Shown in pieces: positions 5,320 to 33,242 of a stretch of 64,000 nt of DNA (within the stretch, counting starts at the first letter, position 1; each line of letters starts with the position of its first letter). This DNA comes from Dictyostelium discoideum. Taxonomy: Eukaryota. The notes under the pieces were generated by a model. It worked only from the letters and a program-made list of their open reading frames with translations. It was not told where the DNA came from and ran no database searches. The stretch lies in contig CM000155.2 in the NCBI GenBank assembly GCA_000004695.1, positions 2,496,001 to 2,560,000 of the forward strand. Direction: 5' to 3'. Both the position numbers and the translations under genes were made by a program.

Positions 5320-10713
<5,394 letters not shown>

Positions 10714-10784: not shown

Positions 10785-11399
10785 TTATCTACTTCTACTA
10801 CTACTTCTACTTCTACTTTTATTATAATTTATACTTCTTGAACGACCTCTATCAATAGACTTTTTTTCACTACTTCTACTTCGACTTCTACTATTTTCTC
10901 TTTTATTTACTTTATATTTATTTGATTTTTCATTATCTTCATCTTTACTACTACTTTTGTCACTCTTATTTTTTCTTCTTTTTGATGACCTTTTTCTGTG
11001 TTTTGAGTCTCTATCGGACTCACTACTGCTATCAGAATCACTACTGCTACTATCACTACTATCACTGTCGCTACTATCACTACTATCACTGTCACTACTA
11101 TCACTACTATCACTACTACTATCACTATCATCATCAGAAGAGGAATAAGATTTTCTTCTTTTCTTTTTCTTTGATAGTATTTTCTTTAATTTTTTATCTT
11201 TTAATTTCTTTTCCTTTTCATCATTATCTTTTGTTGAACCTTTTTGATATGAATTTAATGTTTTTTCTAAAAGCTTTTTATCATTTAAAAGTGCCGTTCT
11301 TGTTGGTCTTGATACATATAATGGTTTGGATTTACATTCAAATGATAAATGGCCAAATTGTAAACATTTTTGGCAGGGTCTTGAATTATTTTTGTTCAT
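10785..11399 (-). CDS. Zinc-knuckle (CCHC) protein with SR/SD-rich tail, ZCCHC10-like, 204 aa, single exon
   Basis: PCQKCLQFGHLSFECKSKPLYVSRPTRTALL matches the ZCCHC10 core ([31 protein letters not shown]). Followed by a lysine-rich and then (SSD)n/(RS)n low-complexity tail. Confidence 0.8.
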   Translation of the reverse strand: MNKNNSRPCQKCLQFGHLSFECKSKPLYVSRPTRTALLNDKKLLEKTLNSYQKGSTKDNDEKEKKLKDKKLKKILSKKKKRRKSYSSSDDDSDSSSDSSDSSDSDSSDSSDSDSSDSSSSDSDSSSESDRDSKHRKRSSKRRKNKSDKSSSKDEDNEKSNKYKVNKRENSRSRSRSSEKKSIDRGRSRSINYNKSRSRSSSRSR

Positions 11400-12061: not shown

Positions 12062-12748
12062 TTAATTGCCAATACATTTAGTACCAGTTAAATTAATTCC
12101 ATTTCTCATTTTAAAGTTTTCCAACCAACCACTACTAGCCTTGAAAGTGTTATTATTTAATTGTTTTGATAAATCGAGAGCAAACTTTTTAATGGTTTCA
12201 CCGCTAACCATTTCACCATTAGCACGAGCTTGATTAATTTTTTCAATTATTAAATTTTCTTGTTCAATTGAGAAGGAGGCTTTTGGACCTTTGTGTAATT
12301 TCTTTAAATTCTTTTTACCAAAACTTCTATATTTATCAATGTTTGAAATCCAACGAGAAATAATACTACGAGAGATATGATATTTCTTTACAACATGATT
12401 CATACCAAACTTATTTTTCTCTTCAAGAATTTCCAACTTTTTATACACCTCATATGATTTTCTTGGTTTCTTACCATTAATAGCGGCAGCACTAACTCTT
12501 TTACTCACTTTACCACTATTTGTAATTTGGTTATTAATATTATTATTATTATTATTATTAAATTCACTACCACTACAAATTGGTGAATTTGGAACTTGCA
12601 TCATTGGGCTACTTGGTTCATCTCTTCTTGATGAACAATCATCACTATCATATTCACTATCATCATCTGAAAAATTATTATTGTTATTATTATTATTGTT
12701 ATTATTATTATTATTATTATAATTATTATTATTATTATAATCAATAAA

Positions 12749-12796
<48 letters not shown>

Positions 12797-13321
12797 AAAA
12801 ATATTATTATTAAAATTATTATTATTTGAGGATGGAACTTTAACTGGTGAAGAAGAAACTATTGGTGAATGAACTGGAGTTGTTTGAGTTGAATAATAAT
12901 AATTTGGAGAGGTACTTGTTGGAGATGATGGTGATGATGGTGTTTTGGTTTTTAAGCTTGCAATTGTATTTATAATGGTTTCATCTGATGTATCTTCAAT
13001 AAGTGATGATTGATCTGAATTATTATAGGATTGAATATACATATTTACATTATTAAAACTACTATTTAAACTATTATTTTTAATTGAAACTCTTGAAATT
13101 TTATTGAAATTATTATGATTATTATTATTATTATTATTAAAATTATTATTATTAAAATTATTAAAATTATTATTATTATTATTATTATTATTATTTGTAT
13201 TGTTATCTGAAATATTTATTATTTGTATTAATGGTGTTGTTGTTGTTGTTGTTGTTGTTGTAGTTGGTGTTGGTAATGTAATTGGTTTTGAAATATTATT
13301 TAAAATATAATGTAATTCCAT
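12062..13321 (-). CDS. Protein with CENP-B/pogo(Tigger)-type N-terminal DNA-binding domains (HTH_psq-like plus CENPB-type HTH) and a long poly-N/poly-T N-terminal region. 419 aa. No transposase (DDE) domain.
   Basis: C-terminal 140 aa: KKPRKSYEVYKKLEILEEKNKFGMNHVVKKYHISRSIISRWISN...GPKASFSIEQENLIIEKINQARANGEMVSGETIKKFALDLSKQ...FKASSGWLENFKMRNGI, the pattern of pogo/CENP-B helix-turn-helix modules. ORF stops at 12062 and the downstream 600 bp has no ORF, so no DDE catalytic domain follows. Confidence 0.6.
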
Positions 13322-14603
13322 TTTTTTTTTTTTTATTTTTTTTTTTTTTTTTTTATTTATTTATATACTATTAATTATTATTATTGAAAAATTATTTTAT
13401 GTGTAAAAATTATTACTATTTATTATTTATTGTGTATGAAAAAGAATTATCTGAATGATAAAATTATTTTTTTTTTTTGAATTGTTTTTTTTTTTATATT
13501 TTGTAAAAGGTAAAAAAAAATAAAAATTAAAAAAATAAAAATTAATTTAATTGAAAATTTGAAAATGTAGACTCTGAAAAAATTGAGAAAAGGGAAAAAA
13601 AAAAATAAAAAAAAAATTAATATAAAATTATTTAATATTTGAAAAGGTAATGTTGAAGTGGAATAATTTTTTTTTTTTTTAAAATAAAATTAAATTAATT
13701 AAAATAAAAAAAAAACTGAAAATAATGTTTTTATATAAATGATGGATGAAATAAAATTTGTTGTTTTAGGACAAAAAAAAAAAGAATTTTAAAAAAAAAA
13801 AAATAAAAATAAATTTATAAAATTAAAAAAAATAAAAAAAAATAAATTAAAAAATCAAAATTAAATTTTTTTTTTTTTTGTTTTTTTTAATTTCATTCCA
13901 AAAACAAAAGAATTTATTTCGATGAATTGGTTTCGAGCAAGAAAAAAAAAAATTTTAGGTGTGAAAAAACAGTGTTGAGAAATCTTTAGAAAAAAATTGC
14001 ATGTGCATGATTGTGTGGTGTAAAAATGTGGGATTTTTTTTTGAATTAACCCGCTCATTCACAGAGTTTTCGATTAATTTTATTTTTTTTTGATGCAAAC
14101 GAAAAAAAAAAATAAAAAAAAAATAAAAATAAAAATAAATTTAAATTAAAAAAAAAGATTGTTTGGCGAGCTCGCCGATGCGTGTTTTTTTTTTGGGGTT
14201 TTTTTTTTTTTTTATAAGTATTTTTAATTTTATGCAAAGGAGCTTACTCTTATTTTTAAAAATAGTAATTTTTTTAAAAATTTGAGAAATATAAATAATA
14301 AAAAAAAATTATACAATTTTAACAAAGATTTTTTTATTTTTTTTTTATTTTTTTTTTATTTTTATTTTTTTTTGACAATGCAAATTTAACAAATCATTTT
14401 TTATGTTGGTTTTTTACAGTCAATATTATGACTGTATTAATGATTTTTTTTAATTTTTTTTTTTAATTTTTTTTAATTTTATTTTTTATTTTTAATTTTT
14501 TTTTTTTTTTTTTTTTTTTTTTTGTGTAAACAACAATTTTTTGAAAAAATAATCACGATGGCAAAAAAAAATTTATGAAATCGAATGATATTTTTTTTTT
14601 TTT

Positions 14604-14642
<39 letters not shown>

Positions 14643-14864
14643 GTTTAAGAAAGACTTCAATTTCGAAGAACTTGTGTAATAAAGATATTTTTTTTTTTTT
14701 TTTGGGATAGGGTACCAAATCTTTATTATTTTTATTATTTATTATTTTTTATTTTTTTTTTGGGGAGGTGAAAAAAAAAAAAAAAAAAATTGAAAGAAAA
14801 GAGAAAAAAAAAAATAAAAAAAAAAAATTTTTTTACAATTTCTGATGGAAAGAGATAAAAAAAG

Positions 14865-14930
<66 letters not shown>

Positions 14931-14943
14931 CTATTAATTGTTT

Positions 14944-15019
<76 letters not shown>

Positions 15020-15662
15020 ATTTAAGGAATAAAACAACATCAATTGCGTGTTGTTATTGCAGTTGTCATAAATTCTACAATAAACATATTTTTTTTATTT
15101 TTTTTTTTATTTTATCTGTACAAGAGTTGGTTGCTATGTTGTGTGGTGTTTAATTATGTGTCACTTTACATTGTTTTTTTTTTTTTTTTTTTTAATATTA
15201 TTTATTGTTATTTGATTTCCTATTGTAATTTTTATTGTGTCAAATAAAAATAGATATTACAAAGGTTTTTTTTTTTTTTTTTTTTTTTATAAAAAAAAAA
15301 GAAATTACTTACTTTAAAAAAAAAAAAATAAAAATAAAAATAAAAATTAAAAATAAAAAAAAAATAATAATAATAATAATAACAACAATATATAAACGGT
15401 TCCAGTAAAAACATTGATTTTTTTATTTTTTTATTTTTTTTTTTTTAATAGTGTGTGATTCTATTATTAGAACCAATGGTTCATATTTTTTTTTTTTTTT
15501 TTTATATTATAGGTGGGGGTAGATAAAATAAATTCCATTAGGTGATAGTTATTGTGGGTGAGTGGGTGTTATAGTGTGTGATAATTGTGAAGTTATATAT
15601 GGCGATGATGGAAATAGTGTTCGCTCCATACAAAAATTAAAATAATAATAATTATTATTATC

Positions 15663-15696
<34 letters not shown>

Positions 15697-15723
15697 CATC
15701 AAGAGAAGAGTTTGTTAAAATTT

Positions 15724-15757
<34 letters not shown>

Positions 15758-15846
15758 TTTACTTACAATGAAAGCGTAGATTGTTGTATTACTTTGTAGA
15801 ATATGTTGCAAAAAAAAATGAAATATATTTTTTTTTTTTTTAAGCT

Positions 15847-15869
15847 CTATTAGTCAGACTTAAAATTAA

Positions 15870-15908
<39 letters not shown>

Positions 15909-15958
15909 AATTAAAATAAATAAAATAAAATAATTAAATAATTTAATAAATAGATTAA

Positions 15959-16009
<51 letters not shown>

Positions 16010-16010
16010 A
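15847..16010. repeat. (AAAT)n / (AAATAAAT)n tetranucleotide microsatellite, two blocks
   Basis: aaataaataaataaat... repeated from 15865-15905 and again 15960-16010. Confidence 0.9.
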
Positions 16011-16844
16011 AATTAATTAATAAATAAGTGGATTGGAAATTATTGTGGTATTAGATTTTTTTTTTTTTTTATAGTATTTTTGTTGACGTTGAAAAAATAA
16101 ATGTGTTATTATTAAAAAATATTTATTTTATTATTTTGTTTTTTTTTTTTTTTTGAAAGAATTTGAGAATATTAATAGATATTATTAAATATAGAATTTG
16201 TTGATTTTATTTTTTTTTTATTTTTTTTTTTATTGGGTGGAGTAGTGATATTGTGGAGTAGTTATATTTAATGTTTTTTTTTTTTTTTTTTTTTTTTTTT
16301 TTGATTGTGTGGTGCAAAGAATTTTTTTCTTATAATTTGGTGTTGGATAAATTAATAAATAAAATAAATAATTTTTTTTGTTTTTTTTTTTTGGTTGCTT
16401 AAATAATTTTTGTTTTTAGATTAATGGTTTGTTTGTTGGTTTTAAAGAGAAAAAAAAAAAAAAAAAAATCAAATTTATTAATATTTTTTTTTTTTTTTTT
16501 TAAATATACAAATAATTTAATAAAATAATAAATAAATAAAAAAAAATAATAATAAATAAAAAAAAAAAAAATATGTCTATTTAAATAAATATTAATTTTT
16601 TTTATTTTTTATTTTTTTTTTTTAATAAATTAAATTTGGGTAATTGGGTGTTGATAATATTATACTCATGACTAAAATAATAACATGAGTGAAAAGAAAG
16701 AAACTGCGATGGTGATGATGATGAGGAAAAATAATATTATGGTGTGGGTGAGTGGGTGTGTGGGGTTTTAAAAAAAAAAAAAAAAAGTATGTGCGATACA
16801 TACAATGTTGAGTTTATAAACTCAAAAAAAACAACACAACAACA

Positions 16845-16985
16845 ATAAAAACAACACCATTAACAACAACAACAACAACAACAAAAACAACAAAAACAAC
16901 AACAACAAAAACAACAACAACAAAAACAAAAATAAGAATAATAATAACAATAATAAAATTTTAACAATAACAAGCAGCAACAAAA
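16845..16985. repeat. Imperfect (CAA)n/(AACAAC)n microsatellite in non-coding context
   Basis: caacaacaacaacaacaaaaacaacaaaaacaacaacaacaaaaac... read directly. No start or splice context supporting coding. Confidence 0.85.
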
Positions 16986-17436
16986 AAAATAACACCCACA
17001 CACCAACCACATACACACTACTGCAACAATAGATAGATATGGAAAGAATATGAAGGTAACTTTAGAACCAAAATTTTAAATGCATCAACAATGTCGATAT
17101 ATATCAAAATTAAGTGAAATTTTTGTGTTGACACAAGAAAATGAATGAAAGTAAAAACCACTCGCACAATAACAAAAAAATAAAAATAAAATAATAAAAA
17201 AAATAAAAAAATAATAAAACAAAAATAAACACACACACCCACACACCCACCACGGTGTTATTGTGAAGTGATGAATGATTCAATATAATACAAACTCTAT
17301 TTTTATAGTTCCTTTATGAAACAAATGTGTGGTGAATTTTTTTTTTTTATTATTTTTATTTTTTTTTTGTTATTCTATTAATATTTTTTATTATATTAAT
17401 AGTGGGCGATATATTATGAAAGGGGTTTTTCTTTTA

Positions 17437-17502
<66 letters not shown>

Positions 17503-18490
17503 CAACCAAAATAATAATAATAATAAAAAAACACAATAGTAATAAAAAAAAAAACAATAGGAAAATAATAAAAAATTAAGTGATTTTATAATTATTATTG
17601 GTATTATTAAATTAATTAATATTTTTCATTACATTTGTTTTAAACCTACTACTTTTACCGCTACCGTTTTTTTTTTTTTTTTTTTTTTATTTTTAAAATA
17701 TTTCGCGATATAAAATTTGTTACTACTAATTTTTTGGGGCAAGATATAAAAATAGAATATTATTATTATTTTTATTGTCAAGTAAAAAAAAAAAATTATT
17801 ATTAATAATAAAAATAATAATAATAATATAAAATAAAAAATTTAAATTAAATAAAATAAAAATCAAATTAAATAAAATAAATGTTTAAAATTAGGATATT
17901 TTACTAGGATTTATTTTTTTATTTTTTTATTTATTTATTTATTTTTTTTTTTTTTTTTGAAAGAGTGAGAGAGATAAAGAATGATAGAGAGTGAGAGATA
18001 TGTATGTGTGTTGTGCAAATAAAAATTTATTTTTAATTTTTTATTATTGAAATATAATATATGATGATGATGGTGATGAAGATGATGATGAATATGATGA
18101 ATTTTATTTGTATGACTATAAATATGATGCTATGGAGAATAAAATTTTATATAGTTACCAAAAATAGATTTTAATAAATTAATATTTGACTTTCTTATTG
18201 TTATTTTATAATAGTTGTTAAATTTATATTTTTTTTATATAATTATTATTATTTTTTTTTTTTTTAATTTATTTTATTTTTTATATATATATATAATTTT
18301 TATATTTTTTCCAAAGGATCCTTTGGAATGGGCGAATTTATTTATTTATTTTGAATTAGTTAGTTTATTGGTAGTTTGAGATTTTTTTATTTTTTTATAT
18401 TTTATTTTTTTAAAGTGAGACCATTGAAAATTATTGTGTTTGGTCAGGTTATTGGGTTAGTGTGTTTGTGAGTGAGTGAGCTTGTGATTT

Positions 18491-18526
<36 letters not shown>

Positions 18527-20468
18527 TATATTATTATTATTATTTGAAAAACTTAGAGGAGAGAGAGAGAGAGATATTAATTTAAATTTAATTAATTAAA
18601 ATGAAAAAAGTTTTTTTTTATTATTTTAATTTATATCTTTTTTTTCTTTAAAAATTTATTTTTAATTCTTTAATTAATTATTTTTATTATTATTTTTTTA
18701 TTATAAATTTAATTTTATTGATAGTTTGAATTTATTTCTTAATATTTTACTAAACTATTATTTTATTAGATTTATAGTGTTATGTATAATGTGATGAAAA
18801 GCCAGTACTTTTAGTATTTTTTTTTAATAAAAGTTCTATTTTTGTGTTGATTAATCAAGGAATTAGATTTATAGATAAAATAATAAATGGCGTTTTTTTT
18901 AAATTATTTGTTTTTTTTTAAAATTAAGTATATAAGAAACCAATTTTTAAATTAATAAAAATAAATAAATAAATAAAAAAAAAATTAAAATTTAAATAAC
19001 CATGATTATAGTTGTAAAATTTTAGGTGATTTCAATTCAGTTTATACTATTTTTGATTCTATAATTATTGTTTATCGTAAGAACGTGGTGGTGTTTGTAT
19101 AAGTAAAAATACTTGGAAAAAGGTGTTATATATTTAATTAAAAAAAAAACAAAAATAATTAAAATAAATAAAAATTTAAAAATACAAGTGTCAGGTAGTG
19201 GTGGTGGGGGGTGGTAATAATTATGTACACAGTTGACGTTGACTCAAATGAAGAAAGGAAAAAAAATAATCAATATAAATTATATATACATATATAATTT
19301 TGTTTTTTTACAAAACAAATTTGTTTTTGAGTAATTTTTAAGAATGGGGTGAGTACCTTATTTAAAGAATTATAAATATATAATTAAAATATATATATAT
19401 ATTTTTTTTTTTTAAAAAAAAAATAGATTATCTCATAATGTTTAGATAGTAAAATACAAAAAACAAAAAAAATATTTAAAAAAGCCTTTATACACATTGT
19501 TAATCCCAGTGTGTGTGTGTTTATATGTGTTAATTATTATGATGATAATAATTATAAATATTATGTTCACATATTTTAATTGAATATTTACAAATATTCC
19601 TATTTAAAAATAGATTTGCTTTAATTTTTATTGACTTTTTTTTTTCTTTATTATTTTACAAGGTGATTTGGCGTCATTGTGAGTTTTTTCACCTTGTTAA
19701 ATTTATATCAACACTAATCAATTTGTGTGTGGTAAAAGATTGTGTGGAAAAAAAATAGAAATTTGATTTTTTTATTATGTATTTATTTAAGTTTTTTTTT
19801 AAATTTTTTTTTTTTTTTTTTTAAAAACAACACACCCATACCACTAAAAATGATATATCTAATGATTTTTTTGTTGAATTTTATTCAGCTAATAGAAGAA
19901 ATCCTTTTTTTTTTTTTTTTTATTAAAAATTATTTCAAATAATGGTTTACTTGTATTTGATATACAAATTCCTTCCATTTTTATCTTAATAGATCAATAG
20001 AAAATAATAATAAAATTTGACATTTAAAAAAAAAAAAAAAAAAAAAATTATTTATAAATATATATTTGATTTAATTGGTGATTTAATAAAAAAAATATAT
20101 ATTTATCAATAACAAACTCCAGCTTTATTTTGTAATTGGCCTTTTTTTAAAATTTAAGTGAATTTCTGTATGTGTGAATAAAATTATGAAAAACAGAGTG
20201 AATGAGGGTATTTATATAATGAAAAACAAACACACTCACACACCTAAACAATTTTTACACTCTCGAAATATTGTGTTGTGGTTAAATCATATTGTTTTGT
20301 TTGATTTTTTTTATTTTAGAAAACCGTTAAAATTATTTTTATTTTATATTACCTTTTATTCCACTCTTTATATATATGAGTTTTATTTGGGTGTACACGA
20401 GTATGTGATATGATGGGAAATCAATTGATTATTCTAATAGTGGTTTTCCAATTTTTTTTTTTTTTTTT

Positions 20469-20511
<43 letters not shown>

Positions 20512-21022
20512 ATTAAATTTATATATATCCACTGATATTGTTTTATCTTTTATTTTAAAATTGCGCCATACAAACAAAAAGAAAATAAATAATTAAATCT
20601 AAATACCAACCAACTAACACATTTTATTACAAACCTTTTTTTTTTTATTTTTTCGAAATTATTAACAATTTAAGGTTTTAAATCTCTTTTTTATTCCATG
20701 ACATAATTTATGTTTTTCAATAATTTAATGTTGATAAAACTGTTAATCAGCGATTTAAAAATAAAAATAAAAATAATGTTGATTATTGGGATTCCAATAA
20801 AATTTTAATAATAAATTTAAAGGAATTCAATATTTTTTATTTTTTTTATTTTTATTATTATTTTTAATTTTTTTATTAGAAAATATTTATGTATCAGTTT
20901 ACAAATATTAAAAATTTATTTATTATTATTATTATTATTTTCATTATTATTTTTATTATCATTATTATTAATATTATAATTTTTTTTTTTTTTTTTTTTT
21001 GTTTTTTTTTGTTTTATTTTAT

Positions 21023-24139
<3,117 letters not shown>

Positions 24140-24282: not shown

Positions 24283-25716
24283 TTATTCATAATAATAACA
24301 AAATGAATCGAAAATATAAAATGATTTTTTATAAATTATACCAAATTGATTTGAGGCTTTTGTTCTCATTGTGATTACTATACCATGAGATTTTTGAACA
24401 GAGGTAGCAATTAATTGAATTGATGGTTGTCCTAATTCAACATCATAGCATTGAATGGAAGCTGTTGAGGCTAGATGTTTATCTAAACGAATGAAACTTG
24501 GTTCTTCAGTTAACAATTTCGATTCTGGTAATAATTGTAACATTCTACCAATGACATCATTACTATATTCATTTAGCCTAATAATACCTGCTGATGAGAT
24601 ATCTTCAACTGCAATTCTTACACAGTATGGTAAATCATTAGTATTCTTGGTTGTATCTTTGAATGATATCATTTCACCATTTGGTTTAATTGATGCGAGT
24701 TCAAATGATTTTGGTATATTTAAATTATAGCCAACCATTAAATTATCGAATATATCATAAGGTAATGGTGATCTTGCTTTTAGTATATGTCCACTTGTTA
24801 CACCTAAATAATTGATTAGTCTATCGAATACTTTAACATAGTAAGCTTTATCTCCATTTGGTACTCTAAATGATAATCTTATCCATTGATCGAATTGGAA
24901 TAAAACATCTCTACCATTGTCACTATCATACTGTTTGGCTACAACCACTAACTTTTTACCATTACCATCACGATAATTCAAATTGATTTGAATGTCTTTG
25001 CATTCATCACCTAAACTACCATCATTTGTAAATTCACTATCACTTTTTGTAATACTAAATACTAAACCTCCATCAAGCACCACCTTTTCATCCTTATAAA
25101 TATGTTGTATATCTCCATTAATTTTCTTTGACCAATCTTTTGGGTAAAAATACTCTAAATATATTTCATTTGAATTTGATGTTGATGACGATGACGATGA
25201 TGATAATAATAATGAATTCATTGATAATTGTAAAAATTTATAACCTTTACATTTAAATAGATTAAAAGAACTAATTGCATGATCGTGAACATATAAATGT
25301 TGTTGAAAGAATTCGTCTGCTTTTGATGTATATGAAATTATATAGGCATGACCTTGATCGAAAAAGAAGGATTGTTTGGATTTCATATGATCATTTGGTA
25401 AGTAATAAATAATTGAACGACCATTATATTTGCCACCAATTAATTCGTCAGAGAAACTTGATGGTTTTGCACCAACTCTTAATATTTCACCCATTATCAT
25501 TTGTTGAAACTGATCAACTTTCACCAATGATGTATCCCTTGAAAACATTGATAAATCTATAATTTGAATATTGAATGAAGGATAAGTTAATTCTTCTTTT
25601 TCTTTAAATCCAACTACAAAAAATGAATTATCTGTTTTTATCCAATTACTCGGATAATCACATGAAAAACCATAAATTTGTGATTCATATGTTGAAAATG
25701 TTATAATTTCTTCCAT
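24283..25716 (-). CDS. Hypothetical protein, 477 aa, single exon, non-repetitive apart from a short poly-Ser
   Basis: Continuous minus-strand ORF of normal composition (MEEIITFSTYESQIYGFSCDYPSNWIK...). No recognisable catalytic motif. Confidence 0.55.
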   Translation of the reverse strand: MEEIITFSTYESQIYGFSCDYPSNWIKTDNSFFVVGFKEKEELTYPSFNIQIIDLSMFSRDTSLVKVDQFQQMIMGEILRVGAKPSSFSDELIGGKYNGRSIIYYLPNDHMKSKQSFFFDQGHAYIISYTSKADEFFQQHLYVHDHAISSFNLFKCKGYKFLQLSMNSLLLSSSSSSSTSNSNEIYLEYFYPKDWSKKINGDIQHIYKDEKVVLDGGLVFSITKSDSEFTNDGSLGDECKDIQINLNYRDGNGKKLVVVAKQYDSDNGRDVLFQFDQWIRLSFRVPNGDKAYYVKVFDRLINYLGVTSGHILKARSPLPYDIFDNLMVGYNLNIPKSFELASIKPNGEMISFKDTTKNTNDLPYCVRIAVEDISSAGIIRLNEYSNDVIGRMLQLLPESKLLTEEPSFIRLDKHLASTASIQCYDVELGQPSIQLIATSVQKSHGIVITMRTKASNQFGIIYKKSFYIFDSFCYYYE

Positions 25717-30995: not shown

Positions 30996-31389
30996 AAACA
31001 TATTTAAAAAATATATCGATGTAAGAAAAAAAAAAAAAAAAAAAAAATATTTGTAAATATAAACAATAATAAACTATTTAATTGATGATCATATTATTTT
31101 ATTTATTTTTATTATGATAATTTGAGAAAACAAAAATATGGAAAATTTTTCAAAGATTTTTTTTTTTTTAATAATTATTATTTATTTTTATTTTTTTAAT
31201 CAGTATTATTTATTTATTTATTTTTTATTTTTTTAAATCATTTTACTTTTTTCAATTCTATAAAAATAAAATAAAATAAAATAAAATAAAATAAAATAAA
31301 ATGAAATTTTATTATTATTTTTTCCAAATTTTAGGAATATATTTAGTAATTTGTCAAAACAAAAAAAGGTTCAATTTAAATTCTTAATT

Positions 31390-31420
<31 letters not shown>

Positions 31421-31427
<7 letters not shown>

Positions 31428-32650
31428 GTATAACGAATTCTTGATGGTTGATATTGTAAAGTATAATCAATTCTTAATTTTAATTGATGAGCAAATTCAA
31501 TTGGTAAGAAAGGATTTCTAAGAAAAGCTCTACCAAACATTATTAAATCTGAACTATTTGATTCTAGGATTGATTCAGCTTCACTAGCAGTTGTAATTAA
31601 ACCAACAGAGGAAACTAATAATTTACCAGAACGTTTTAAAATTGATTGTTTAATTTCATGAGAGAATGGTACTTGGTATAATGGTTTTGAAGTAATCTTT
31701 TGTTTACTATTATTACCACCAGTTGAAACATCAATTAAATCAACATCTAATGATTCTAAAATTTCTGCTAATTTAATTGAATCATTTAAATCCCAACCAT
31801 TTTCATTCTCTACCCATTCATCAGCAGATATTCTAACAGCTAGTGGTTTTTCAGTTGACCAAACTGAACGAACTGATTTAACGATTTCAATTAGTAATTT
31901 AATTCTACCATCGAATGAACCACCACCATAAATATCGGTACGTTTATTTGAAGTTGATGAAAGGAATTGATTGATTAAGTAACCGTGAGCGGCATGGATT
32001 TCAATTAAATCAATACCAGCTTTAGCGCATCTTATTGCCGATTTCTTGAATGATTCAATAACATTTTCAATATCATTAATTGACATTTCAATTGGTATTG
32101 ACATTTTATCACTCCATTGGATTGACGATGGTGCATAAACATTCCAACCATTACCACTTGGATCATTGGTTGGAATTGAATTTGAATTTCTGGCACCTTC
32201 TAAAAACAATGGAATACTTGATCCTTTTCTACCTGCATGTCCAAGTTGAATACCAACTTTACTATCAAATTCATGTGAAAAATCAACAATTCTCTTTAAT
32301 CCATCAATTTGAGAATCTTTCCAAAGTCCTGCGTCGCCATATGTAATACGACCTTCTGGTTCAACCGATGTTGCTTCAATTATTACTAAACTTGCACCAC
32401 CTTTTGCAAAATTTGAATAATGACTAAAATGCCAATCATTAAAATATCCATCTAAACTTGAATACTGACACATTGGACTAACAACTATACGATTTTTTAA
32501 TTTTAAATTCTTAATTTTTAATTGTGAAAATAATTTTGGTTTATCATTTTTTTCATTTGATGAACTTGCATCATCAATATGATCTTGATTTACAATTGAT
32601 CCAGCTGATGTGTAGTTAGTTGGTTTATTAAATGTATATTTAAATTCCAT
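31421..32650 (-). CDS. NADPH dehydrogenase / NADH:flavin oxidoreductase of the Old Yellow Enzyme family (YqjM-type), 409 aa, single exon
   Basis: IVVSPMCQYSS..., ...HAAHGYLINQFLS..., GGS...R..., TIM-barrel OYE signatures throughout. N-terminal about 45-aa extension. Confidence 0.9.
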
Positions 32651-33242
32651 TTTTATTATATATATATTATTATTAAATATTTATAAAAACTATTATTTAA
32701 GAAAAAAAAAAGTTTATTTTATTGTATTATTGATTTATTTTATTAATGATTTAAAATAATTTTTTTTTTTTTTTTTATACTTTTTTTTTTAGTATAAAAA
32801 AAAAAAAAAAATCTATTTAACAAAGAATAACATTGGTTTCTGACTAAAAATAGATAAACCTTAATGAAAGTTTATCTTTAGAAAAAAAGAAAAAAAAGAA
32901 TACGACTTCAGAAACATTTTTGATTGTGTGTAAATTTTATTTTTTTTTTTTTTTTTTTTTTTTTTTTATTCTTTTTAATTTTTTTTTTTTTTTTTTTTTT
33001 TTTGTGTGGTTTGATTTCTTCTGGAATGTTAAAAATAATGAAAATATGAAAATTTAAATCTGTGAAATAAATGAAAATAGAAAACAGTTTTTTTTTCTTT
33101 TTTGTTTTAATTTTTACAATTTTCTATTATATGAATTTTTTATTTTTTTTTAAATGTTTTTTTTTTTGAGAGACTGCTTCTAATTTTTCAATTTCATCAT
33201 CATCTATATCATCTTTATTATTTTTAAAGAAATGACTTTTTA

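What the first reader, a model, noticed from the sequence alone, without database searches (positions are those of the whole stretch)
13322..21022. 7.7-kb gene-free AT-rich block with recurring G/T-rich CAE/G-box-like motifs
Elsewhere in the window intergenic spacers are about 0.2-1.5 kb, but between the HTH gene (start 13321) and the cog4 3' end (21023) there is 7.7 kb with no credible exon on either strand. The block contains microsatellites ((AAAT)n, (CAA)n, (GAT)n-like). It also carries repeated short G/T-rich islands: GTGGGTGAGTGGGTG twice (about 15563 and 16748), CACACACCCACACACCCACC at 17231-17250, TGTGAGTGAGTGAG at about 18465, and TGACGT-type repeats (gttgacgttga at 16083 and 19224). 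In Dictyostelium the G/T-rich or CA-rich elements (CAEs) bound by the G-box binding factor look exactly like these. An alternative is a locus transcribing a long non-coding RNA, or a degraded repeat landscape.
Basis: partly seen in the sequence, partly recalled or inferred. Interest (0 to 1): 0.55.

Follow-up and report, generated by a model that had tools for sequence, protein, structure and literature searches.

The report
Conserved lncRNA locus with G-box clusters
The 7.7-kb "empty" stretch of Dictyostelium chromosome 6 has no protein-coding gene, but published RNA-seq models show it is copied into long non-coding RNAs, and it holds a 1.2-kb core conserved as well as neighbouring exons plus clusters of G/T-rich regulatory-type motifs.

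Summary
Window 13322-21022 (D. discoideum AX4 chr6:2,509,325-2,517,025) has no credible coding sequence. No ORF of 25 aa or more survives in D. cf. discoideum, there are no Pfam, Rfam or tRNA hits, and four other annotated assemblies call no gene over the part they cover (about 14.2-21.0 kb).

The G/T-rich motifs are real, confined to the block within this window, and far above chance.

The block is not silent. I anchored the window to chr6 using four REMI-seq sites. Three published lncRNA models (Rosengarten et al. 2017) then fall inside it:
- 13807-14502 (+)
- 15278-19439 (+), 4,161 nt against a catalogue median of 628 nt
- 16587-17681 (-)

A 1.2-kb core (about 16284-17438), where the sense and antisense models overlap, shows 1.7% substitutions against D. 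cf. discoideum. The rest of the block shows 6.6% and exons 1.6-4.7%.

A large, C-skewed spacer rich in G/CA boxes also lies upstream of the orthologous CENPB-type HTH gene in P. violaceum, H. album and C. fasciculata.

Best reading: a conserved, transcribed regulatory and lncRNA landscape of the HTH gene. The motifs match the published GBF half-site consensus, but binding is untested, and the boxes are not the most conserved parts. This is a new member of a known kind, of moderate interest.

The parts
13322..21022 (.). 7.7-kb block with no protein-coding gene, equal to AX4 chr6:2,509,325-2,517,025. It lies between the start of the CENPB-type HTH gene and the 3' end of the COG4-like gene.
   Evidence: ORF list. 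Composition. No Rfam or tRNA hit. No gene called after the COG4-like gene in L002, L008, L013 or L014. Chromosome mapping.
13807..14502 (+). Published lncRNA model CUFF_5064_1 / DDB_G3969939 (chr6:2509810-2510505, 695 nt). It runs divergently from the HTH gene, starting 486 nt from the HTH ATG.
   Evidence: Rosengarten et al. 2017, File S4/S6, mapped with offset 2,496,003. GC is 16.2%.
14444..15290 (.). Belt of T-rich and A-rich tracts of about 50-160 nt that separates the two + strand lncRNA models. It is probably unmappable with 100-nt reads, so the two models may be one transcript.
   Evidence: TRF and sequence. The model ends at 14502 and 15278 lie inside T runs. The single-transcript idea is an inference.
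15278..19439 (+). Published lncRNA model CUFF_5065_1 / DDB_G3970253 (chr6:2511281-2515442, 4,161 nt, single exon).
   Evidence: Its length is 6.6 times the catalogue median of 628 nt. On the sense strand G=458 and C=225.
16587..17681 (-). Published antisense-overlapping lncRNA model CUFF_5066_1 / DDB_G3969975 (chr6:2512590-2513684, 1,094 nt).
   Evidence: GC is 21.2%.
16284..17438 (.). Conserved non-coding core. It holds the longest invariant runs: 16982-17104 (123 nt), 16614-16725 (112 nt) and 16384-16479 (96 nt).
   Evidence: Substitutions at complex sites in 15976-17300 are 1.7%, against 6.6% in the rest of the block (Fisher P=1.8e-6) and 1.6-4.7% in exons. The five-sequence alignment agrees. 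Frame-breaking indels show it is not coding.
15553..15569 (+). Double G-box, TGTGGGT-GAG-TGGGTGT. This is copy 1 of GTGGGTGAGTGGGTG.
   Evidence: Both half-site islands are unchanged in D. cf. discoideum.
16741..16765 (+). Double G-box, GGTGTGGGT-GAG-TGGGTGTGTGGGG. This is copy 2 of the 15-mer.
   Evidence: It carries a G>T substitution (L008) and a T>G substitution and a TG deletion (both L013).
16992..17007 (-). G-box in the inverse orientation. It reads as a CA-box on the + strand and as GTTGGTGTGTGGGTG on the - strand.
   Evidence: It lies inside the 123-nt invariant run.
17229..17251 (-). CA-box ACACACACACCCACACACCCACC, which is a G-box on the - strand.
   Evidence: Its length varies between strains through CACC/CACA indels.
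14012..14020 (+). TGTGTGGTG, copy 1 of 4. The other copies are at 15140-15148, 16306-16314 and 17326-17334, all on the + strand, with spacings of 1128, 1166 and 1020 bp.
   Evidence: 4 found against 0.12 expected, and none elsewhere in the window. Test of spacing evenness gives P about 0.004. Copies 2-4 are conserved in L008.
18410..18482 (+). Invariant 73-nt island that contains TGTGAGTGAGTGAG (18467-18480).
16082..16092 (+). GTTGACGTTGA, with a second copy at 19232-19242.
   Evidence: It is only modestly above chance. The first copy lies in an invariant run, 16058-16102.
16808..16825 (.). Perfect 18-bp palindrome TTGAGTTTATAAACTCAA, inside the invariant run 16780-16845. Other palindromes are TTCCAAAGGATCCTTTGGAA at 18309-18328 and GGCGAGCTCGCC at 14165-14176.
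12062..13321 (-). Flanking gene: a CENPB/Tc5-type HTH protein (419 aa). The block is its upstream region.
   Evidence: PF03221, E=3e-14. Orthologues exist in D. purpureum, P. violaceum, T. lacteum, H. album and C. fasciculata.
21023..24139 (-). Flanking COG4-like gene. Its 3' end faces the block.
   Evidence: COG4_C, E=1e-36. It is called as an 814-827 aa gene in the other assemblies. P. violaceum has the same gene order.

Best explanation
The block is a conserved, transcribed, non-coding regulatory landscape that belongs to the CENPB-type HTH gene.

**Shown**
- It encodes no protein.
- Published strand-specific RNA-seq models show two + strand lncRNAs that run away from the HTH promoter (13807-14502 and 15278-19439). 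A 1.1-kb antisense lncRNA (16587-17681) is also modelled.
- The sense/antisense overlap coincides with a 1.2-kb core under exon-like purifying selection.
- Clusters of G/T-rich elements fit the GBF half-site consensus.
- A comparable large, C-skewed spacer rich in G/CA boxes lies upstream of the orthologous HTH gene in three other dictyostelid lineages.

**Inferred**
- The two + strand models are one transcript of at least 5.6 kb, split only by unmappable homopolymers.
- The G-box clusters and conserved palindromes are binding sites for developmental transcription factors (GBF-type zinc-finger proteins and dimeric factors). These sites drive the non-coding transcripts and/or the HTH gene.
- Transcription through the core, or the RNA itself, acts in cis on HTH expression.
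For: **Mapping to the chromosome**
- Four REMI-seq sites (chr6 2527090, 2533054, 2535246, 2554803) fall exactly on GATC/CATG at window 31087, 37051, 39243 and 58800. The solution is unique.
- With that offset, the three lncRNA models of PMC5295588 lie wholly inside the block.
- At least three of their six ends lie in or beside homopolymer runs.

**Non-coding**
- No ORF of 25 aa or more is intact in D. cf. discoideum.
- The core has indels of 1, 2 and 4 nt.
- There are no Pfam hits and no Rfam or tRNA hits.
- No gene is called there in four other assemblies.

**Constraint**
- Core substitutions are 1.7%, against 6.6% in the rest of the block, 1.6-4.7% in exons and 11.9% in introns.
- The five-sequence profile agrees.

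**Motifs**
- See for counts, and for the GBF consensus.

**Other species**
- P. violaceum has the order COG4-like, 3.1-kb spacer, HTH. The spacer has 7.1 islands per kb, against 0.8 in the flanking 10 kb.
- H. album has a 7.0-kb upstream region and C. fasciculata up to 4.8 kb.
- All three have C>G on the HTH sense strand, as in D. discoideum.
Against: - No expression values for the three lncRNA models could be read, because the stored supplements were cut. Abundance and timing are therefore unknown. The catalogue's median lncRNA reaches only 1 RPKM.
- Cufflinks models can merge or split transcripts.
- GBF binding is untested. The G/CA boxes vary in length between strains and are not the most conserved parts of the core.
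- The 17:4 strand bias is not what orientation-independent enhancer sites would predict.
- T. lacteum has only 0.58 kb upstream of its orthologue.
- Constraint rests on three closely related lineages. No sequence similarity to the spacers of distant species was detectable.
- RNA folding gives no signal beyond short palindromes.
Confidence: 0.6

Rival explanations
1. The block is purely a DNA-level enhancer or promoter landscape for the HTH gene, or for another neighbour. In this view the lncRNA models are low-level by-products (eRNA-like or pervasive transcription) with no function of their own.
For: - Conserved palindromes and motif clusters are typical of transcription-factor sites.
- A large motif-rich spacer is kept upstream of the HTH gene across species.
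- The catalogue's median lncRNA abundance is only 1 RPKM.
- No RNA-structure signal was found.
Against: - A contiguous 4.2-kb model plus an antisense model is unusually extensive: lncRNA models have a median length of 628 nt and intergenic spacers average about 700 bp.
- Constraint is continuous over about 1.2 kb, rather than limited to short site-sized islands.
- This rival overlaps with the best explanation and cannot be separated from it without experiments.
Confidence: 0.3
2. The block hides one or more unannotated protein-coding genes or micropeptide ORFs. One candidate is the 28-aa ORF at 16685-16771.
For: In the 28-aa ORF, the two substitutions in D. cf. discoideum are synonymous and one indel is in frame.
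Against: - The C-terminus and stop of that ORF are not conserved.
- Every ORF of 25 aa or more is broken by frameshifts or stops in the sister lineage.
- There are no Pfam hits.
- Frame-breaking indels occur throughout the core.
- Four other assemblies annotate no gene here.
Confidence: 0.04
3. The block is a degraded transposon or repeat landscape, or a neutral AT-rich filler in which G/T-rich microsatellite-like tracts arose by slippage.
For: - 54% of the aligned block is A/T-only runs of at least 10 nt.
- The CA/GT boxes gain and lose 2-4 nt units, as microsatellites do.
- The neighbouring HTH domain derives from a Tc5/pogo transposase.
Against: - Complex sequence in the block is more conserved than introns, 6.6% against 11.9% substitutions, and the core is conserved like exons.
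- No transposase, reverse transcriptase or integrase remnants were found.
- No dispersed or internal long repeats were found.
- The spacer persists across lineages.
Confidence: 0.04
4. The block is a chromosomal structural element, for example a replication origin, a nucleosome-phasing or scaffold-attachment region, or a G-quadruplex-prone region. It would be marked by the G skew and by the roughly 1.1-kb spacing of TGTGTGGTG.
For: - G>C skew of +0.3 to +0.5 extends over about 6.5 kb, far above the +0.08 to +0.19 seen in introns.
- The four TGTGTGGTG copies are evenly spaced (P about 0.004, a post hoc test).
Against: - No independent evidence supports this.
- The skew has the same sign relative to the HTH gene in other species, which points to a gene-linked feature rather than a chromosomal one.
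- Canonical runs of four G tracts are absent.
Confidence: 0.03

Closest known systems
GBF-dependent G-box / CAE promoter elements of Dictyostelium post-aggregative genes (sigN genes per PMC2257962; the examples cotC/SP60 and cprB are from my own knowledge)
   Same: - Both use G/T-rich (or C/A-rich) heptamers that fit (T/G)G(T/G)G(T/G)G(T/G).
- The sites occur as closely spaced pairs, in both orientations, embedded in very AT-rich DNA.
   Different: - Known examples sit within about 1 kb upstream of a protein-coding gene (from my own knowledge; not checked here).
- Here about 21 islands are spread over 7.7 kb and are strongly strand-biased (17:4).
- Most lie inside lncRNA transcript models.
- GBF binding or dependence has not been shown.
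Dictyostelium intergenic lncRNAs catalogued by Rosengarten et al. 2017 (PMC5295588). dutA, which I know from memory, is the classic developmental untranslated RNA.
   Same: The three models in the block are entries of that catalogue. They are AT-rich (16-21% GC against a catalogue median of 17%), single-exon and lie entirely between genes.
   Different: - One model is 4,161 nt, against a median of 628 nt.
- The models form a sense/antisense cluster in one of the largest spacers of a genome whose spacers average about 700 bp.
- As far as I could find, the exon-like conservation of a 1.2-kb core and the persistence of the spacer across species have not been reported.
Gene deserts with conserved non-coding elements and divergent lncRNAs next to developmental transcription-factor genes in animals (from my own knowledge)
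   Same: - An unusually large non-coding region lies next to a DNA-binding-protein gene.
- It contains islands of strong constraint.
- A divergent non-coding transcript starts near the gene's promoter.
   Different: - The scale is kilobases rather than hundreds of kilobases.
- Sequence conservation is shown only within the D. discoideum species complex.
- The function of the HTH gene is unknown.

Membership tests
GBF-bound G-box/CAE cis-elements | [quoted passage not shown] | tested here: met
   There are 21 islands. The double sites are at 15553-15569 and 16741-16765 on the + strand, and at 16992-17007 and 17229-17251 on the - strand.
GBF-bound G-box/CAE cis-elements | Occurrence above local background | tested here: met
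   Density is 2.7 per kb against 1.1 per kb in other intergenic DNA of the window. The 15-mer family gives 4 hits against 0.00 expected. Genome-wide background was not testable.
GBF-bound G-box/CAE cis-elements | Evolutionary conservation of the sites above that of their surroundings | tested here: inconclusive
   15 of the 20 islands covered by the alignment are identical in D. cf. discoideum. However, the boxes in the core carry substitutions and 2-4 nt indels, while the flanking sequence is invariant.
GBF-bound G-box/CAE cis-elements | Physical binding by GBF, and GBF-dependent post-aggregative expression of the linked transcript | not testable with these tools
   No ChIP, EMSA or expression data could be reached. 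The expression tables of PMC5295588 were truncated in storage.
Intergenic lncRNA (as defined by Rosengarten et al. 2017) | Strand-specific RNA-seq transcript model of at least 200 nt, lying entirely between genes | tested here: met
   Three catalogue entries map to 13807-14502 (+), 15278-19439 (+) and 16587-17681 (-), using a coordinate offset verified at four REMI sites. The reads themselves were not re-analysed here.
Intergenic lncRNA (as defined by Rosengarten et al. 2017) | No conserved coding potential | tested here: met
Dictyostelium small ncRNA genes (Class I RNAs, snoRNAs, snRNAs with a DUSE promoter) | Match to an RNA family model, or a DUSE about 60 nt upstream of a Class-I-like RNA | tested here: not met
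   No Rfam hit reaches the gathering score. Only two weak C/D-box-like hits were found, at E=0.6 and E=4. A DUSE-like ACCCACAA lies on the - strand at 15552-15559, seen by eye, but it has no Class-I-like partner (criteria).
Transposon remnant / dispersed repeat | Residual transposase, RT or integrase coding sequence, or repeated copies | tested here: not met
   No Pfam hits in the ten longest non-low-complexity stop-free segments. Self-comparison finds only short motif recurrences. Whole-genome copy number was not testable.
Protein-coding gene | An ORF kept intact, with synonymous-biased change, in related genomes | tested here: not met
   all ORFs of 25 aa or more are disrupted; frame-breaking indels.

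The most novel reading that the evidence does not exclude
The spacer may be an ancient, positionally conserved lncRNA and regulatory unit coupled to a domesticated Tc5/pogo-type HTH gene throughout Dictyostelia. Its 1.2-kb bidirectionally transcribed core would be a functional RNA, or a site of transcriptional interference, that controls this overlooked DNA-binding protein during multicellular development. That would make it one of the first deeply conserved lncRNA-gene pairs in Amoebozoa.
Probability: 0.2. Interest if true: 0.7.

Novelty: new member of a known kind. Interest (0 to 1): 0.45.

Why it matters
Dictyostelium has a compact genome, with spacers of about 700 bp on average. A 7.7-kb non-coding interval under selection is therefore exceptional.

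The work links three anonymous catalogue lncRNAs, one of them 4.2 kb long, to:
- a defined conserved core;
- GBF-type motif clusters;
- a conserved neighbouring HTH gene that the dictyostelid transcription-factor census does not list.

This gives a concrete, genetically tractable locus for asking whether lncRNAs, or the act of transcribing them, regulate developmental genes in a social amoeba. It also offers a test of whether G-box clusters work at long range.

If the transcripts turn out to be noise, the locus still marks an unusually large cis-regulatory region for this organism.

Tried and rejected
- **Known RNA families.** Rfam at the gathering score on the whole window found nothing. Rfam at E up to 10 on the block gave only chance-level snoRNA/miRNA-like hits. 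ARAGORN found no tRNA.
- **Homologue searches.** The search for homologous proteins with the HTH and COG4-like proteins did not return D. discoideum-complex proteins. I therefore could not fetch D. citrinum, D. firmibasis or D. purpureum versions of the spacer.
- **Exact-match look-ups.** Six reconstructed 817-aa COG4-like models and the zf-CCHC ORF were not in the collection.
- **D. purpureum.** Its contig ends 110 bp upstream of the HTH gene.
- **Distant spacers.** blastn and tblastx of the block against the H. album, C. fasciculata, T. lacteum and P. violaceum spacers gave only low-complexity matches.
- **Ancient tandem duplication.** I tested whether a unit of about 1.1 kb explains the spacing of TGTGTGGTG and the 15-mer. 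Self-alignment shows no similarity beyond the motifs.
- **Transcription-coupled strand asymmetry.** I tested this as the cause of the G skew. Introns in the window show only +0.08 to +0.19.
- **Long hairpins or miRNA precursors.** Inverted repeats are only A/T runs.
- **RNA folding.** Tiled folding of the core on both strands gave no signal except short palindromes.
- **Telomerase-RNA-like template.** I considered this because the CA-box resembles yeast TG1-3 repeats. I rejected it from my own knowledge that Dictyostelium chromosome ends are not TG1-3. It was not tested.
- **Locating the window from gene ID numbers.** Guessing the chr6 position from DDB_G numbering was unreliable. The position was settled only by matching REMI sites.
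- **Literature look-ups.** The GtaC ChIP-seq supplements and the TF-census supplements held nothing on the flanking genes I searched for.
- **Six-frame Pfam scan.** I scanned stop-free segments instead.

Full report
**Identity of the window**

Exact protein look-ups place the window on the 3,602,379-bp contig of Dictyostelium discoideum AX4, around DDB_G0293108 (window 24283..25716, -). I take this contig to be chromosome 6.

Pfam identifies the surrounding genes:
- tagA: an S8 protease fused to an ABC transporter, 5320-10713. tagA is DDB_G0293002.
- A zinc-knuckle gene, 10785-11399.
- A CENPB/Tc5-type HTH gene, 12062-13321 (-).
- A COG4_C-domain gene, 21023-24139 (-).

The gene that dictyBase calls cog4 is DDB_G0267960 on chr1. 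The gene on the right flank is therefore better described as COG4-like.

**Checking the observation**

Between 13322 and 21022 the GC content is 13-19%. G strongly exceeds C on the + strand, 785 against 438. Other AT-rich gaps between long ORFs in the window show G and C roughly balanced, except for two short gaps.

All ORFs of 50 aa or more are homopolymer artefacts. The named motifs lie within a few bases of the stated positions.

The motifs are not chance events:
- The 15-mer GTGGGTGAGTGGGTG and its relatives at up to 2 mismatches occur four times in 64 kb, all in the block. Shuffles expect 0.00.
- TGTGTGGTG occurs four times, all on the + strand and all in the block, against 0.12 expected.
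- GTTGACGTTGA is only mildly unusual.
- Heptamers fitting the published GBF response element (T/G)G(T/G)G(T/G)G(T/G) (PMC2257962) form 21 islands, or 2.7 per kb. Other intergenic DNA of the window has 1.1 per kb. The strand bias is 17:4.

**No protein-coding gene**

- Four other annotated assemblies call no gene after the COG4-like gene, up to the end of the fetched DNA about 6.7-6.8 kb further on. They are three D. discoideum strains and D. cf. discoideum.
- No ATG-ORF of 25 aa or more in the part of the block covered by the alignment (from 14300) remains intact in D. cf. discoideum.
- The ten longest non-low-complexity stop-free segments have no Pfam match.
- Indels of 1, 2 and 4 nt occur even in the best-conserved part.
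- Rfam and ARAGORN find no known RNA gene.

**The block is transcribed**

The lncRNA catalogue of Rosengarten et al. 2017 (PMC5295588) lists three adjacent models on chr6:
- 2509810-2510505 (+)
- 2511281-2515442 (+), 4,161 nt
- 2512590-2513684 (-)

To place the window on chr6 I used REMI-seq insertion sites from PMC8386026: 2527090 (intergenic), 2533054 (intergenic), 2535246 (in DDB_G0293182) and 2554803. REMI sites must be GATC or CATG.

Only one placement puts the first three sites on such motifs. That placement is the + orientation with chr6 = window + 2,496,003. It also puts each site in the right kind of region (intergenic, intergenic, ORF). The fourth site then also lands exactly on a GATC.

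With this offset the three models become:
- 13807-14502 (+)
- 15278-19439 (+)
- 16587-17681 (-)

All three lie inside the block. Among the chr6 lncRNA entries I read, they are the only ones that fall in the 64-kb window.

At least three of the six model ends lie in or beside homopolymer runs. The 775-nt gap between the two + strand models is a belt of T-rich and A-rich tracts of about 50-160 nt. I infer that the two may be one divergent transcript of at least 5.6 kb, starting about 0.5 kb from the HTH start codon.

The catalogue's median lncRNA is 628 nt, and average intergenic space is about 700 bp. I could not read expression values, because the stored tables were truncated.

**Selective constraint**

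The block is collinear in another D. discoideum assembly (0.25% substitutions), in two further strains (about 4.4%) and in D. cf. discoideum (6.0%).

The table gives AX4 against D. cf. discoideum substitution rates, at positions outside A/T runs and microsatellites.

| Region | Substitutions |
|---|---|
| Core 15976-17300 | 1.7% (9 of 530) |
| Rest of block | 6.6% (131 of 1970) |
| Coding exons nearby | 1.6-4.7% |
| Introns of the COG4-like gene | 11.9% |
| Other spacers | 5-27% |

The difference between the core and the rest of the block is significant (Fisher P=1.8e-6).

The five-sequence alignment puts the least variable stretch at about 16284-17438. It contains invariant runs of 123, 112 and 96 nt. 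This core coincides with the overlap of the sense and antisense lncRNA models.

The G/CA boxes inside the core are not its most constrained parts. They carry substitutions and 2-4 nt length changes, while the flanking complex sequence and several perfect palindromes are invariant.

Tiled RNA folding gives no signal apart from those palindromes.

**Other species**

| Species | Spacer upstream of the HTH orthologue | G/CA islands per kb, spacer vs adjacent 10 kb |
|---|---|---|
| P. violaceum | 3.1 kb, same gene order (COG4-like, spacer, HTH) | 7.1 vs 0.8 |
| H. album | 7.0 kb, one dubious 50-aa call only | 3.4 vs 2.1 |
| C. fasciculata | 1.7 to 4.8 kb | 3.3 vs 1.2 |
| T. lacteum | 0.58 kb | 1.7 vs 0.9 (one island only) |

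In the first three species C exceeds G on the HTH sense strand (skew -0.16 to -0.28), and CA-type islands outnumber GT-type ones. D. discoideum has the same polarity. T. lacteum is the exception.

No alignable sequence is shared at these distances. The common neighbour across these species is the HTH gene. This is why I assign the landscape to it.

**Interpretation**

The best-supported account is a conserved, transcribed regulatory and lncRNA landscape upstream of the HTH gene.

The strong strand bias and the microsatellite-like instability of the boxes are reasons for caution.

Whether the RNAs act themselves or are by-products of enhancer or promoter activity cannot be decided here. Coding, transposon-remnant and small-RNA-gene explanations were tested and are not supported.

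**Novelty and score**

The transcript models are already in a public catalogue. Two things appear to be new:
- their link to an exon-like conserved core, to GBF-type motif clusters and to a conserved HTH gene;
- the persistence of the spacer across Dictyostelia.

I rate this a new member of a known kind, of moderate interest.

Noticed in passing
This one is a second, COG4-like gene. Its P. violaceum orthologue has COG4_m plus COG4_C.
   Followed up: partly
window about 31100-33200: The NADH:flavin oxidoreductase gene (31421-32650) and its flanks have no counterpart in D. cf. discoideum (L008) or in D. discoideum strains L013 and L014. A near-identical paralogue (same 90%-identity cluster) exists on another AX4 chromosome. 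This looks like a recent insertion or duplication in the AX4 lineage.
   Followed up: partly
window 12062-13321 (-): The CENPB/Tc5-type HTH gene has orthologues in D. purpureum, P. violaceum, T. lacteum, H. album and C. fasciculata. Even so, the dictyostelid transcription-factor census (PMC6873476) lists CENPB as absent, and the orthologue IDs I searched for are not in its stored tables. The exact ORF is also not in the protein collection.
   Followed up: partly
window 14012, 15140, 16306, 17326 (+): The four TGTGTGGTG copies are almost evenly spaced, at 1128, 1166 and 1020 bp. Spacing this even has P of about 0.004 under random placement, in a post hoc test. There is no residual similarity between the intervals, so the cause is unexplained.
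   Followed up: partly
L001 (D. purpureum GL871121.1), locus 1-110: The D. purpureum contig stops 110 bp upstream of its HTH orthologue. The assembly seems to break in the equivalent spacer.
   Followed up: no
window 14857-15017: This A-rich run of 161 nt (91% A) is one of several very long homopolymer-like tracts. Its length differs even from the near-identical assembly L002, with 69 gapped columns in 14776-14975.
   Followed up: no
window 18309-18328; 14165-14176; 16808-16825; 15470-15482: Perfect or near-perfect GC-containing palindromes sit in the AT-rich DNA. They are TTCCAAAGGATCCTTTGGAA, GGCGAGCTCGCC, TTGAGTTTATAAACTCAA and GAACCA-A-TGGTTC. One lies inside a run invariant across five genomes and another overlaps such a run. 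They are candidate sites for dimeric factors.
   Followed up: partly
window 16685-16771 (+): A 28-aa ORF (MSEKKETAMVMMMRKNNIMVWVSGCVGF) shows two synonymous changes and an in-frame 3-nt insertion in D. cf. discoideum. Its stop and C-terminus are not conserved, so this is probably coincidence.
   Followed up: yes
window 5320-10713 (+): The developmental gene tagA (serine protease/ABC transporter, DDB_G0293002) lies 2.6 kb beyond the HTH gene. The spacer could in principle also influence it.
   Followed up: no
PMC5295588, File S6 (stored supplementary file 19): For the chr6 lncRNAs near 2.51 Mb, the catalogue lists 'nearest neighbour' genes that are 100-230 kb away (DDB_G0293054 and DDB_G0293310). 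The published neighbour correlations for these three lncRNAs therefore do not concern their real neighbours.
   Followed up: partly
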